A program made the position numbers. 64,000 bases of DNA from Escherichia coli (GTDB lineage: Bacteria; Pseudomonadota; Gammaproteobacteria; Enterobacterales; Enterobacteriaceae): assembly GCF_003790525.1 (NCBI RefSeq), contig NZ_CP033635.1. The stretch is one strand, 5' to 3'. Shown piece by piece: positions 34,201-37,200 of the stretch. The first letter of the stretch is position 1. Each line of letters opens with the position of its first letter.

Positions 34201-37200
34201 AATGAATATGAGCAGGGGAATTATATCAACCGTGTGACGAAGCGCCACTATTGCCGGATAACAGGCAAAGAAAAGGCCACCTGTCACGGTGGCCAATGTG
34301 ATCAGTGTGGTGGCTTGCTGGTGGGCTATTCCTGCTCTTTGGCCTTGCGCCGCTGGCGGCGTTTGATCTCGCCTTTTGCGGCAGTAACTAAAAAACCAGC
34401 GGTACTTTCGCCAGGTTCTTTAAGTTGCTCAATATCATCCATTACTTCATGTGGGATTCTGACAGTTGTCATTTGTGATTTTGCGTTCTTTGCACCAGTT
34501 GCCATTTCTGGATCTCCTAAAAATTGGTGTATGTCAGTATACGCAAAAAAAATGATAAAAAAAGGCTTGAAGTGTATTTCACCAGTGAGTAAATTAAAAA
34601 GCAAAGGTGAAATACACCTGAAAGAGCAACGCCCCGCAGTGCTCGCAACACATGCAGGGCGTCTAACCAAACCGTTAAACGAGGTAACGATTATGGCTGG
34701 AACACAGCATACCCCACGACTAGCGCACACACAAACCGCCTTTGTGTGGCGTTTTCTGGCACTGAGTGCCGGAGAATCCCAGATCATCCACGTCACCGCC
34801 TGGACGGAACGCGAAGCGCGTAACCGTTGCCCGTCCGGTTGTGTCGCTGTATTCGCCGCCCGTATTCGTCAGGGGGTGTGCCATGATTAACCTGTCACTT
34901 ACCGATCTTAACCGCGTTCAGTTTCGTGAGAAATTTACCGGACAGCTACTCGTCAATGTGGAGAACGGGCGCATAGTGCGTAATTATCACCTGCCGGATG
35001 GTGCAATTGCCGGAAGCGTTGAAGCATTGCTTGAACTGGCGGAACGTGCGCGACTGATTAAGCCGTCAACGAGCCATCACGATGATGATCTGCATTTTAC
35101 CGGATGTATGGTGAGTCACTACGAAAACGGCGTCGAGGTATCCTGCGAACGGCTGCGTGATGATTGCTGTTTCGGCACACTGCCGGAATTTATCGAATTG
35201 CTGACCAGTTGCGGATATCAGGTTATTCAGGGGGTGCGCCATGTGCAATAACATCCGTCCGGACGCAGCCGCCGAAGCCATCATAACGCTAATGCACGCG
35301 CTGATTGATATTTCATGCACGGCAGCAACCGCAGAAAAACACATTACCAGAGAGCCGGAATATACAGGGGCAATAATCCCGCATTTGCTGGCCTACGCAC
35401 AGCTTACCGCTGATATGGCGCTGAATGAGGCCAAAGCTATCCTGATTGCTGATTGTGAAAATGGGGGGGGTTATGCGTGATGATCGTTTTAATTCCCTGA
35501 AACAGGAATTTTCCGGCGTATCTGATGATGCGAGTGATGCGCTTTCGTCAATATCCGAACTGATAAGAGCGGCATTTTTCTTACTTGGCACGAAAGAAAA
35601 TAAAAAAACGGGGTTTGATGTACTAAATATCACCGCTGATTATGCGGAATATGTGTCAGAAGTCGATTTAAGAAAAATCCCGAATTGTCGCGGCATTAAT
35701 AACGCTTCTTGAACCTGTAATAAATTAATTGCAGGAAATAGACCTATTGCACGACAGATATAAAGAACAGCACACCGGAGAATAAAAATAATGAGACTTA
35801 AATATTCTGGCTTAACTGCCAGTGGCAAAACTCGCACTAAATTCATGCGCGGCGATATTTACCGCGATAAGTACGGCGGCACGGTAACGATTAAAGGCGT
35901 GGAGGAACGGCGCATCACTTACCGCCGTGAAGGCTACGAATATGACTGCGTTATGCCTGTTTATCAGTTCCGGCGTGATTTCACGCTGGTGGGCCATCGT
36001 AAAGCCGTTAATCAGAAACGTGCTGCAAGTTATATCCGCAAAATCCGTGAAATGCTGGTCGCAGGGGGTAAGAAATGAAACTTGCACCGAACGTAAAACT
36101 GTTACCGAAAGATAAACACACTGAGGCGGTTATTTTTGCGGGTGATAATGCTCACTCCTTTGCAGAACATTACATGATTGCACAGGCCAAAAAAGCAGGC
36201 GATCCCATCCCTCCGGTTTATCTGGGCCGTTATCAGTTAAGCGAACTGGACAACTTACAGATTGTTGATGAAGGACGATACAGGGTAAAGGTCATACGCG
36301 CCGGAAACCTGGACGATATGCAGATGCTGACCATTGCCACAAAACTGGCGATCGCCGGAGTCCAGGAGGCGCGGCTACTTTCTGAAAATTTCGAACTGCT
36401 GGAGGACTGGAGCGACCAGCTACCACGACTACGGGAAACATGGGAGAGAGGGGAAAGCCTGGTCATGAATGGCGGAAAGCGAAAAATCACACTTCCCATC
36501 TCATGGGGTTCTGAGGGATTCGACGCGCAGCAAAGCTACGTAATTAAGGGGCTTATTCCGGCTGAATCATTATGCAGCACCTACGGGGCCAGCGGTTCCT
36601 ATAAATCGTTCCTCGCTATTTCCTGGTCGTGCCATGTTGCCACAGGTATGGCATGGGGAGGCCGCAGGGTAAGTAAGGGGGCGGTTATCTATATCGCTGG
36701 TGAAGGCAGCATGGGCGTAAAACGCCGCGTTAAGGCGTGGGAGATAACCCACGACAAGGTGGTTACAGATTTGTGCATCATTAACGCGCCTGTTTTCCCT
36801 GCATCGCCTGACTATGTGGAGCAGGTTATCAGGACTGCCGGACTTGTTAAGAGCAGAACGGGCGAAAATGTGCGGCTGATTGTGATCGACACACTGGCCC
36901 GTTGCTTTGGTGGGAATGATGAAAATGATTCCCGTGATATGGGCGCATTTATCCAGGGGTGTGACGCGATAAAGCAGGCCACAGGGGCCACGGTGCTGGT
37001 GGTTCACCATTCCGGCAAGGATGAAACAAAGGGGGCGCGTGGTTCCAGTGCATTCCGTGCCGCGCTTGATGCAGAGTACCGAATCAGCAGGGAAAATTCA
37101 GACGTTACAGCACTGGTGGCGGCGTGTACGAAGATGAAGGACGCAGAGGAGCCAAAAGAGAGTGCATACGACCTTAAAAGCGTGGAGGTGTTCACCGATA

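What the first reader, a model, noticed from the sequence alone, without database searches (positions are those of the whole stretch)
34326..34692. Divergent control region with a lone minus-strand 59-aa basic protein facing the main operon
The only minus-strand gene in the island (34326-34505, strong RBS, sequence resembling the beta-strand-helix start of a ribbon-helix-helix fold, Arg/Lys-rich C-terminus) is transcribed away from the small-gene/Rep operon that starts at 34693. The ~190 bp between them must hold divergent promoters. This resembles a repressor/anti-repressor switch, with the small protein as candidate master repressor and helper-phage-induced derepression.
Basis: inference. 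Interest (0 to 1): 0.45.

Follow-up and report, generated by a model that had tools for sequence, protein, structure and literature searches.

The report
Overlooked repressor switch in phage satellites
The small backward-facing gene most likely encodes a ribbon-helix-helix repressor that sits on three matching DNA sites over two back-to-back promoters and, together with a previously unnoticed antisense RNA, keeps the replication genes of an E. coli phage-satellite island switched off; the best-studied island of this type carries the same module, which I did not find described.

Summary
ORF 34326-34505 (-) is a real, conserved 59-aa gene of the YlcI/YnfO family. It lies 187 bp from, and divergent to, the Icd-like/RepA operon of a 10.8-kb phage-inducible chromosomal island (PICI) between roxA and phoQ. 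A tandem AlphaFold model gives a ribbon-helix-helix fold.

The intergenic region has a fixed layout in 66 related islands. Three copies of an 11-bp site (O1 34527-34537, O2 34572-34582, O3 34607-34617) overlap a leftward -10 and a rightward -35/-10/+1. The site core differs between islands, is the same at all three sites within an island, and tracks residues 12 and 14 of the protein's beta-strand. It does not track AlpA or the downstream gene. This supports a sequence-specific, autoregulated repressor.

The conserved hairpins upstream of the Icd-like gene belong to a roughly 78-nt minus-strand antisense RNA covering its ribosome-binding site and start codon. That RNA resembles the R1162/IncQ countertranscript.

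The prototype island EcCICFT073 carries the same module, and I found no description of it. Helper-phage derepression is untested. Published work shows induction of these islands through AlpA.

The parts
34326..34505 (-). 59-aa YlcI/YnfO-family protein, predicted ribbon-helix-helix DNA-binding repressor. Strand is residues 10-18, helix A 19-28, G-E-S turn 32-34, helix B plus basic tail 35-59.
34275..34294 (-). Intrinsic-terminator-like hairpin (7 bp, 6 G-C) plus T-run, ending the repressor transcript. It has no T-run on the plus strand.
   Evidence: sequence.
34515..34518 (-). Shine-Dalgarno GGAG of the repressor gene, 8 nt before the ATG.
   Evidence: Sequence. The column is conserved in 57 loci.
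34527..34537 (.). Operator O1 (GTGTATGTCAG). It overlaps the -10 and start region of the leftward promoter; inferred autoregulation site.
   Evidence: It lies 45 bp from O2 in nearly all 66 loci.
34536..34541 (-). -10 element of the leftward (repressor) promoter, TATACT on the minus strand. It is part of the most conserved block of the region (CAGTATAC).
   Evidence: Per-column information content over 57 non-identical loci. Assignment as a promoter is inferred.
34567..34595 (+). Rightward promoter of the Icd-like/RepA operon: -35 TTGAAG (34567-34572), 17-nt spacer, -10 TAAATT (34590-34595). TTGA is invariant in relatives.
   Evidence: The simple consensus scan did not flag it (8 of 12 matches). 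Relatives have TTGACG with TATAGT or TACGAT.
34572..34582 (.). Operator O2 (GTGTATTTCAC), overlapping the -35 and spacer of the rightward promoter.
   Evidence: There are only two exact copies in the 64-kb window: this one and O3.
34607..34617 (.). Operator O3 (GTGAAATACAC, an inverted exact copy of O2) at about +5 to +15 of the rightward transcript.
34620..34698 (-). Predicted cis-antisense RNA of about 78 nt, complementary to the leader, Shine-Dalgarno sequence and start codon of the Icd-like gene. Ends are inferred.
   Evidence: RNAalifold and pair counts: 95.9% paired, 14 of 18 pairs with compensatory changes, 0 of 500 shuffles as good. G.U versus A.C asymmetry of 93 to 4 fixes the strand. 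MFE -35.4 kcal/mol, z -3.8. Covariance model R1 scores 76 bits.
34628..34663 (-). Terminator hairpin of the antisense RNA (9 + 4 bp), followed by UUGCUCUUUC on the minus strand.
   Evidence: T count in the 12 nt after the hairpin averages 5.6 on the minus strand and 2.1 on the plus strand.
34673..34689 (-). 5-bp hairpin whose 7-nt loop carries the anti-Shine-Dalgarno sequence CCUC. On the plus strand the loop holds the GAGG of the Icd-like gene.
   Evidence: 4 of 5 pairs with compensatory changes.
34706..34734 (-). Candidate promoter of the antisense RNA inside the Icd-like coding sequence: -10 TATGCT (reverse complement of 34706-34711), 17-nt spacer, -35 TTGTGT (reverse complement of 34729-34734).
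   Evidence: In codon 6 of the Icd-like gene the first two bases vary (H/S/C/D/F), but the third base T and the next A are invariant. These are the TA of the antisense -10. Inferred.
34693..34890 (+). Icd-like first gene of the rightward operon. Its stop overlaps the next ATG (34883), so translational coupling is possible.
   Evidence: NF033153 scores 64.9 bits; ORF list.
33813..34001 (+). AlpA, convergent with the repressor gene. It is the published activator of this class of island.
   Evidence: Pfam Phage_AlpA, E 5e-18; PMC6092414.

Best explanation
The window carries a 10.8-kb Gram-negative PICI at the roxA/phoQ attachment site. Region 34275-34734 is its immunity and early-control module. 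It has two layers.

(1) Transcriptional layer. The 59-aa protein is a dimeric ribbon-helix-helix repressor. Its beta-ribbon reads three 11-bp sites of the form GTG-N5-CAC, with residues 12 and 14 setting specificity. R16, S10, K9 and the basic tail are inferred to contact the constant flanks and the DNA backbone.
- O2 covers the -35 and spacer of the rightward promoter, and O3 covers its +1 region. Occupancy blocks transcription of the Icd-like, small-gene, DUF4222 and RepA-helicase operon.
- O1 covers the -10 and +1 of the protein's own promoter, giving negative autoregulation.

(2) Translational layer. A constitutive antisense RNA of about 78 nt starts from a promoter inside the Icd-like gene. 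It pairs with the operon's leader, Shine-Dalgarno sequence and AUG. It would block translation of the Icd-like gene and, through translational coupling, probably of the genes downstream. It ends at a hairpin plus U-tract next to O3.

What is shown: the gene is real, the fold prediction, the conserved layout, the protein/operator co-variation, and the RNA structure and its strand.

What is inferred: actual DNA binding, the direction of regulation, the promoter assignments, and the existence and ends of the RNA.

How the lock is opened is not known. My preferred, speculative route is that helper-induced AlpA drives or anti-terminates rightward transcription. That transcription would run through the convergent repressor gene and into the operon.
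For: Gene and fold:
- Family membership, homologues, alignment and coding signature.
- The tandem AF2 model has strands at 10-18 and 93-101.

Synteny:
- The order int> alpA> <ylc | icd> ... rep> is seen in most of the 66 loci where flanks are available, from Yersinia, Hafnia, Pectobacterium, Xenorhabdus, Proteus, Serratia and others.

Operators:
- The O1-O2 spacing is 45 bp and the -35 sits at a fixed distance from the ATG in nearly all loci.
- O2 differs from its own O3 by 0.7 mismatches on average, against 4.7 mismatches to operators of other types.
- There are 18 operator classes and 16 strand classes. ARI is 0.82 and NMI 0.905, with 0 of 10,000 permutations as high.
- Per-residue NMI peaks at residue 14 (0.88) and residue 12 (0.74). 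The pair (12,14) gives ARI 0.86.

Controls:
- 62 locus pairs with AlpA at least 85% identical have different operators.
- 47 pairs with the same operator have AlpA below 50% identity.
- Identity of the first rightward gene is independent of operator type (median 42% against 43%).

Promoter columns:
- CAGTATAC and TTGA are the most conserved columns of the region.

Antisense RNA:
- Structure, strand and stability.
- Synonymous-site invariance at the proposed -10.
- Covariance model R1 finds the element in EcCIEDL933 (47 bits) and EcCICFT073 (55 bits). It also finds the known countertranscript site of an IncQ plasmid (26 bits, E 8e-4) and nothing else in 183 kb.
Against: - There is no experimental binding or expression data.
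- Adjacent sequences are co-inherited, so part of the protein/operator association could come from linkage. The AlpA, Icd and leader-hairpin controls argue against this but do not remove it.
- Neither Pfam RHH profiles nor PDB sequence profiles match the protein.
- The monomer model gives no significant Foldseek hit.
- The dimer model used an artificial linker.
- The window's rightward promoter is weak by consensus (8 of 12 matches) and the scan did not flag it.
- I could identify no good -35 for the leftward promoter.
- The published model of EcCICFT073 induction needs only AlpA and mentions no repressor (PMC6092414).
- EcCIEDL933 works without this gene.
Confidence: 0.75

Rival explanations
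1. The three repeats are binding sites for another island protein (AlpA, the Icd-like protein or the replication initiator, as iterons). The small protein would then do something else.
For: AlpA is the only experimentally established regulator of these islands (PMC6092414). PHROG labels the Icd-like family 'transcriptional repressor', though that label is unverified.
Against: The operator type is independent of AlpA and of the first rightward gene. The same operator type occurs with both RepA-helicase and primase-type islands. Iteron-like repeats lie elsewhere, at 37476-37680. The operator type tracks residues 12 and 14 of the small protein.
Confidence: 0.07
2. The protein is the RHH antitoxin or regulator of an addiction-like module whose toxin is the Icd-like cell-division inhibitor. 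The antisense RNA would act as a type-I-like antitoxin. The module would serve island maintenance rather than control of the satellite life cycle.
For: Icd of phage P1 is a division inhibitor (established knowledge). RHH proteins are common antitoxins. A cis-antisense RNA over the ribosome-binding site of a small toxic gene is the type I toxin-antitoxin layout. The antisense RNA and Icd-like gene persist in EcCIEDL933 without the RHH gene.
Against: The RHH gene is divergent from the putative toxin, not co-transcribed with it. The protein has no C-terminal toxin-binding domain beyond a conserved basic tail. The promoter under the operators drives the whole replication operon, not just the Icd-like gene.
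Confidence: 0.1
3. The conserved hairpins are a sense-strand leader element: an attenuator, a processing site, or a C4/CI-like immunity RNA co-transcribed with the Icd-like gene as in phage P1.
For: In P1, the icd gene is preceded by the C4 RNA. Rfam C4 and isrK hits are reported in some Gram-negative PICIs (PMC10111431). A conserved CUAACCA follows the hairpin on the plus strand.
Against: There is no Rfam C4 or isrK hit, even at E up to 10 on 421 bases. 93 G.U cells on the minus strand would be A.C mismatches on the plus strand, against 4 the other way. The U-tract follows the hairpin only on the minus strand.
Confidence: 0.06

Closest known systems
Phage P22 immI region (Mnt and Arc RHH repressors, divergent Pant/Pmnt promoters, sar antisense RNA); from established knowledge
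   Different: There is no detectable sequence homology by profile search. This module has three operators rather than one. No antirepressor (ant) gene was found downstream. The regulated operon is a satellite replication operon beginning with an Icd-like gene.
IncQ plasmids R1162/RSF1010: repressor F plus a 75-nt countertranscript controlling repA-repC (Rfam RF00043)
   Same: An antisense RNA of about 75-80 nt lies over the Shine-Dalgarno sequence and AUG at the head of an operon that contains a RepA-family (AAA_25) helicase. The order is the same: terminator hairpin, CUAACCAC(C)AAC, small hairpin with the Shine-Dalgarno sequence in its loop, then AUGGCU. The satellite covariance model hits the IncQ site at 26 bits, E 8e-4. 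Both systems combine a small repressor with a countertranscript.
   Different: The Rfam score is 19.9 bits against a gathering threshold of 55, so it is not a member by Rfam's criterion. In IncQ plasmids the repressor F lies inside the operon, not divergent to it. Here the target gene is Icd-like and the helicase lies 1.4 kb downstream.
pMV158 CopG (RHH) plus antisense RNAII dual control of repB (PMC4485353)
   Same: It uses the same two-layer logic: a roughly 45-60-aa RHH transcriptional repressor and a countertranscript that blocks translation initiation of the replication gene.
   Different: CopG is co-transcribed with repB and binds a single pseudo-palindrome. It belongs to a Gram-positive rolling-circle plasmid. 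No sequence relationship was detected.
SaPI/Gram-positive PICI master repressor Stl (Rpr) with divergent stl/str promoters (PMC6092414)
   Same: A repressor gene is divergent from the excision and replication operon of a phage satellite. Repressor specificities are highly diversified between islands.
   Different: Stl proteins are larger helix-turn-helix proteins. Stl is transcribed in the same direction as int, whereas here int and alpA point the other way. Stl is inactivated by binding a helper-phage protein, which has not been shown here. The Gram-negative islands additionally need AlpA.
E. coli K-12 YlcI (DLP12) and YnfO (Qin), uncharacterised prophage proteins
   Same: They belong to the same NCBIfam family. 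YlcI shows the same strand-helix-G-x-S-helix pattern (RNIRFPNQMIEQINIALEQKGSGNFSAWVIEACRRRL). It is also divergently placed.
   Different: YlcI faces cos and nohD of a lambdoid prophage, not an Icd-like/replication operon. It is only about 29% identical. No matching operator triplet was looked for there.

Membership tests
Ribbon-helix-helix (Arc/MetJ/CopG) DNA-binding superfamily | An N-terminal beta-strand pairs with that of a second subunit to form an antiparallel ribbon, followed by two helices. | tested here: met
Ribbon-helix-helix (Arc/MetJ/CopG) DNA-binding superfamily | A G-x-S/T/N turn between helix A and helix B. | tested here: met
   G32-E33-S34. E33 and S34 are invariant; G32 is usual but is D in 4 of 23 homologues.
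Ribbon-helix-helix (Arc/MetJ/CopG) DNA-binding superfamily | A sequence-profile match to a curated RHH family. | tested here: not met
   No Pfam RHH, Arc or CopG family at E up to 1. No PDB sequence match.
Ribbon-helix-helix (Arc/MetJ/CopG) DNA-binding superfamily | Alternate beta-strand side chains read repeated operator sites. | tested here: met
   Indirect evidence only. NMI with operator class peaks at residues 14 and 12. The same (12,14) pair goes with the same or a near-identical operator. Binding itself is not testable here.
YlcI/YnfO family (NCBIfam NF041551) | HMM score above the curated cut-off. | tested here: met
   64 bits against a cut-off of 30, residues 9-50. RefSeq gives the same name in E. 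coli genomes.
PICI master repressor (Stl/Rpr type) | The repressor gene is divergent from the satellite's replication operon, and its operators lie on the shared promoter region. | tested here: met
PICI master repressor (Stl/Rpr type) | Repression is lifted by direct binding of a helper-phage protein. | not testable with these tools
   This needs genetics or biochemistry.
PICI master repressor (Stl/Rpr type) | A helix-turn-helix repressor transcribed in the same direction as int. | tested here: not met
   The predicted fold is RHH. Both int and alpA are on the opposite strand to this gene.
R1162-like plasmid antisense RNA (Rfam RF00043) | Covariance-model score at or above the gathering threshold. 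| tested here: not met
   19.9 bits against 55, E 0.41 on 421 bases.
R1162-like plasmid antisense RNA (Rfam RF00043) | A countertranscript over the Shine-Dalgarno sequence and AUG at the head of a RepA-helicase operon, with its terminator hairpin distal to the AUG. | tested here: met
   The structure lies on the minus strand. The reciprocal model R1 hits the IncQ urfF/repA junction at E 8e-4. Whether the transcript exists has not been tested.
Phage P1 immI (C4 RNA - icd - ant) | A C4-type RNA upstream of icd. | tested here: not met
   No C4 or isrK hit at E up to 1 over the island, or at E up to 10 locally.
Phage P1 immI (C4 RNA - icd - ant) | An Icd-like first gene. | tested here: met
   NF033153 scores 64.9 bits.
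Gram-negative PICI (int-alpA-replication-capsid satellite) | int, then alpA, a replication module with a downstream ori, a phage capsid-type gene, about 10 kb, flanked by att repeats. | tested here: met
   It occupies the same attachment site as EcCICFT073 and EcCIEDL933.

The most novel reading that the evidence does not exclude
This RHH protein is the missing 'master repressor' of a large class of Gram-negative PICIs, including the model island EcCICFT073. It would hold the island silent together with an IncQ-like countertranscript. AlpA would induce the island not by classical activation but by driving or anti-terminating transcription, as Pseudomonas AlpA does (PMC7969949). That transcription would run through the convergent repressor gene and past the repressed promoter. 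Gram-positive and Gram-negative PICIs would then share a repressor-based logic, and the 18 or more operator specificities would be satellite immunity types.
Probability: 0.3. Interest if true: 0.75.

Novelty: new member of a known kind. Interest (0 to 1): 0.6.

Why it matters
[quoted passage not shown] It calls the difference from Gram-positive islands a mystery (PMC6092414).

This analysis shows that a conserved candidate repressor, with its operators and an antisense RNA, lies between alpA and the replication operon in many of these islands:
- At least 415 of 5,426 complete E. coli genomes carry 80% or more of the gene plus intergenic region.
- The module occurs in many other Enterobacterales.
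- It is present in EcCICFT073 itself, where the gene carries a locus tag from a much higher number series than its neighbours (C_RS30120), which suggests it was added on re-annotation.

The open question therefore becomes directly testable in an existing model system.

The natural set of about 18 protein/operator pairs also offers a specificity code for an RHH beta-ribbon, centred on residues 12 and 14. It could supply orthogonal repressor/operator parts. The resemblance of the antisense RNA to the IncQ countertranscript hints at a shared origin of satellite and plasmid replication control.

Tried and rejected
- Pfam and PDB sequence searches gave no RHH match.
- Foldseek with the monomer model gave nothing significant; the best hit was the SeqA N-terminal domain at E 3.
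- Rfam over the whole island gave no hit. The C4/isrK idea prompted by the Icd-like gene was rejected.
- The sense-strand leader or attenuator reading of the hairpins was rejected on the G.U versus A.C asymmetry.
- The consensus promoter scan did not flag the promoters proposed here. They rest on conservation across loci instead.
- I tested whether co-resident islands avoid sharing an operator type. 22 of 24 within-genome pairs differ, but shuffling gives the same result (P 0.44), so no claim of heteroimmune exclusion is made.
- The operator motif is not enriched elsewhere in the window at up to 2 mismatches (20 found, 17.6 expected). No further regulon sites were found.
- tblastn against 50,697 phage records found no homologue.
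- Two fetches of CFT073 coordinates missed the island before it was found.
- RSF1010 could not be fetched by accession, so an IncQ1 plasmid was used instead.
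Full report
**Context**

The window is E. coli chromosome (potAB, pepT, roxA ... phoQP, purB). Between roxA and phoQ lies a 10.8-kb island bounded by imperfect direct repeats at 32113-32187 and 42929-43003. All of the following genes are on the plus strand:
- an integrase (32188-33438);
- AlpA (33813-34001);
- an operon starting at 34693 with an Icd-like gene, followed by small genes, a DUF4222 gene and a RepA-family AAA_25 helicase (36075-37481);
- SSB and PerC;
- a ClpP-protease/major-capsid fusion (39608-41524).

This is a Gram-negative phage-inducible chromosomal island (PICI). 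The experimentally studied islands EcCIEDL933 and EcCICFT073 occupy the same attachment site in their strains.

**The observation**

The ORF at 34326-34505 on the minus strand has a GGAG 8 nt before its ATG and a terminator-like hairpin with a T-run after it at 34294-34275. It lies 187 bp from the Icd-like ATG. It is a real gene:
- It passes NCBIfam NF041551 (YlcI/YnfO family) at 64 bits against a cut-off of 30.
- It matches the PHROG of unknown function phrog_949.
- It has 179 homologues of 59-64 aa in Escherichia, Salmonella, Klebsiella, Enterobacter, Yersinia, Pectobacterium, Dickeya, Hafnia, Edwardsiella, Serratia, Xenorhabdus and Morganella.
- Its substitutions fall mainly on third codon positions: 29,733 against 5,342 and 3,227, with 69% synonymous.

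The family is small. Only 89 representatives at the 50% identity level reach E 1e-3 among 1.84 billion proteins. It is absent from 50,697 phage records.

**Fold**

The alignment shows three parts:
- an invariant N-terminus, MATGxKNxKS;
- a variable segment followed by R16 and P18, a helix, a G-E-S turn and a second helix;
- an invariant C-terminal GEIKRRQR.

Sequence profiles do not connect it to known RHH families. A monomer AlphaFold model has residues 1-18 as coil, helices at 19-28 and 35-58, and pLDDT 87. It gave no significant Foldseek hit.

**Conserved context**

A scan of one genome per species found 66 loci. Where flanks are available, AlpA and the integrase lie beyond the gene's 3' end on the opposite strand. 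The Icd-like, DUF4222 and RepA or primase genes lie beyond its 5' end, also on the opposite strand. The divergent arrangement and the roughly 190-bp spacing are therefore a conserved module, not a peculiarity of this island.

**The intergenic region**

Oriented like the window, the 66 regions can be laid side by side almost without gaps for the first 110 nt. The best conserved columns are:
- CAGTATAC (34535-34542), which on the minus strand reads TATACT, 30 nt before the repressor's ATG;
- TTGA (34567-34570), the start of a -35 hexamer.

Seventeen bases after the -35 comes a TAnnnT hexamer (34590-34595, TAAATT).

Three copies of an 11-bp element GTG-N5-CAC are placed around these signals:
- O1 (34527-34537) overlaps the leftward -10 and start region.
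- O2 (34572-34582) begins at the last base of the rightward -35.
- O3 (34607-34617) lies just downstream of the rightward -10.

O1 and O2 are 45 bp apart in nearly every locus. O2 and O3 are 22-25 or 35 bp apart, and O3 occurs in either orientation. In the window, O2 and O3 are the only two exact copies of the 11-mer in 64 kb.

**Who binds the sites**

The 5-nt core differs between islands (TATTT, GCTGA, CGATT, TCCGA, TAAGA, GTGTT, GCATT, GGCCA and others, about 18 classes). Within an island it is the same at all three sites. O2 differs from its own O3 by 0.7 mismatches on average, against 4.7 mismatches to operators of other classes.

The operator class goes with the sequence of residues 10-18 of the small protein. 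ARI is 0.82 and NMI 0.905, and none of 10,000 label shuffles reaches this. Residue by residue, the association peaks at position 14 (NMI 0.88) and position 12 (0.74). The pair (12,14) alone gives ARI 0.86. Proteins that share this pair but differ at positions 11, 13 or 15 have the same or nearly the same operator. Examples are L,T; Q,N; S,T; and K,Q. With R16 aligned to Arc R13, positions 12, 14 and 16 are the outward-facing ribbon positions that contact bases in Arc. That register comes from my knowledge of Arc, not from a test here.

Adjacent sequences are inherited together, so I ran controls:
- 62 locus pairs with AlpA at least 85% identical carry different operators and different strands.
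- 47 pairs with the same operator have AlpA below 50% identity.
- Identity of the first rightward gene is unrelated to operator class.
- By inspection of the alignments, the same leader-hairpin variants occur with different operator classes.
- The same operator class occurs with both helicase-type and primase-type replication modules.

The simplest reading is that the small protein is the sequence-specific binder of O1-O3. The positions of the sites predict repression of the rightward operon and of the protein's own gene.

Between O3 and the Icd-like ATG lie a long hairpin (34628-34663) and a 5-bp hairpin (34673-34689) whose loop holds the Shine-Dalgarno sequence. Across 60 distinct sequences:
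- the structure is 95.9% paired;
- 14 of 18 pairs show compensatory changes;
- no shuffle out of 500 matches it;
- sliding the partners drops pairing to about 40%.

The strand can be read from wobble pairs. 93 cells are G.U on the minus strand and would be A.C mismatches on the plus strand. Only 4 go the other way. A T-rich tract follows the long hairpin only on the minus strand. The structure therefore belongs to a minus-strand RNA. That RNA is antisense to the leader, Shine-Dalgarno sequence and AUG of the Icd-like gene, and the long hairpin is its terminator (folded alone: -35.4 kcal/mol, z -3.8).

A promoter for it is suggested inside the Icd-like gene: TATGCT (reverse complement of 34706-34711), a 17-nt spacer, then TTGTGT. 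In codon 6 of the Icd-like gene the first two bases vary (His, Ser, Cys, Asp or Phe), yet the third base T and the following A are invariant. These are exactly the TA of that -10. The RNA would be about 78 nt long. Its ends are inferred.

**Relationship to known RNAs**

- Rfam gives no hit over the island, and in particular no C4 or isrK hit.
- On the 421-base region alone, the best sub-threshold hit is RF00043, the R1162-like plasmid antisense RNA (19.9 bits, gathering score 55).
- The Rfam consensus maps to the urfF/repA junction of IncQ plasmids in the sense orientation.
- A covariance model built from the satellite sequences finds the window element (76 bits), EcCIEDL933 (47 bits) and EcCICFT073 (55 bits).
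- The same model also finds that IncQ junction on the antisense strand (26 bits, E 8e-4) and nothing else in 183 kb.

Both elements share the same order of parts: terminator hairpin, CUAACCAC(C)AAC, a small hairpin with the Shine-Dalgarno sequence in its loop, then AUGGCU. Both operons contain a RepA-family helicase. I regard this as a likely distant relationship, but not as membership of the Rfam family.

**The model island carries the module**

EcCICFT073 has a YlcI/YnfO gene (C_RS30120) divergent from an Icd-like gene (C_RS30125). Three copies of GTGGGCCACAC occupy the same positions, and the antisense element is present. These locus tags come from a much higher number series than those of the neighbouring genes. 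That suggests they were added on re-annotation, which may be why published maps describe these islands as essentially unidirectional (PMC10111431).

The published work states that a global repressor in the Gram-negative islands is unclear. It shows that AlpA activates the island and is induced by helpers (PMC6092414). Full-text searches for YlcI, YnfO or DUF3950, for RHH with PICI, and for EcCICFT073 with repressor found no description of this module.

EcCIEDL933 lacks the gene. It has a 247-aa plus-strand gene in its place but keeps the antisense element and the Icd-like gene. The two layers are therefore separable.

**Mechanism proposed, and its limits**

Shown:
- a conserved gene with a predicted RHH fold;
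- a fixed promoter/operator layout;
- protein/operator co-variation;
- a minus-strand RNA structure.

Inferred:
- The protein represses the rightward operon at O2 and O3, and its own gene at O1.
- The antisense RNA blocks translation of the Icd-like gene. Because that gene's stop overlaps the next ATG (34883-34890), it probably also blocks the genes downstream.

How induction overcomes this is unknown. The hairpins between alpA and the repressor gene carry T-runs mainly on the minus strand. AlpA of Pseudomonas is an antiterminator (PMC7969949). One possibility is therefore AlpA-dependent read-through that runs antisense through the repressor gene and into the operon.

**Prevalence**

At least 415 of 5,426 complete E. 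coli genomes carry 80% or more of the gene plus intergenic region. About 1,600 match the Icd-like/antisense part.

Noticed in passing
window 39011-39092 and 41549-41630: Two 82-nt direct repeats (93% identical) flank the capsid module. By eye they contain a GGGGCGGGAGC...CGCGGAAAA stretch reminiscent of the lambda cos region, so they may be duplicated cos or packaging sites of the satellite.
   Followed up: no
window 37476-37512 and 37644-37680: 37-nt repeats built of AAAAGTGAGT units lie just downstream of the RepA helicase gene. They look like iterons and are probably the island's replication origin.
   Followed up: no
window 32113-32187 and 42929-43003: Imperfect 75-nt direct repeats (79%) end in an identical GGTGTAGTTAATGGTGTAGTTAATT. 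They are the probable attL and attR, defining a 10.8-kb island between roxA and phoQ.
   Followed up: partly
window 42386-42429 and 42798-42841: A 44-nt direct repeat (89%) near the right end of the island. Its function is unknown.
   Followed up: no
L074 (E. coli CFT073, NC_004431.1) 27931-38655; L069 (EDL933) 3464-12270: The model islands EcCICFT073 and EcCIEDL933 sit at the same roxA/phoQ site as the window's island. CFT073 has the RHH/operator module. EDL933 has a 247-aa plus-strand gene in its place.
   Followed up: partly
L002 (E. coli MN06021) 5921-17876: A related island with the same RHH/Icd module is inserted inside the major capsid gene of a lambdoid prophage. This is the helper-embedded PICI configuration of PMC10111431.
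   Followed up: no
L072 (E. coli K-12) 6252-6446: K-12 YlcI (DLP12 prophage) shows the same strand-helix-GxS-helix pattern. It is divergent from nohD across the cos region, so the uncharacterised YlcI/YnfO proteins of lambdoid prophages are probably RHH DNA-binding proteins too.
   Followed up: partly
window 34008-34026, 34148-34176, 34275-34294: Three hairpins lie between alpA and the repressor gene. The first and third are followed by T-runs only on the minus strand. Leftward transcripts would therefore be stopped before alpA, while rightward transcripts from alpA may pass.
   Followed up: no
window 34693-34890: PHROG labels two families that match the Icd-like protein (phrog_1743, phrog_6196) as 'transcriptional repressor', whereas NCBIfam calls it a host cell-division inhibitor. 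The two annotations conflict and neither was tested.
   Followed up: no
window 39608-41524: A ClpP-like prohead protease is fused to a major capsid protein (NF045540, 908 bits). The relatives L001, L002 and CFT073 instead carry separate capsid and decoration genes, so the late modules are swapped between otherwise similar islands.
   Followed up: no
L014, L029, L031, L061 (Xenorhabdus innexi); L015, L033, L046, L058 (X. mauleonii): Single genomes carry up to four such islands, each with a different operator type. This is not statistically distinguishable from chance given the diversity of types.
   Followed up: yes
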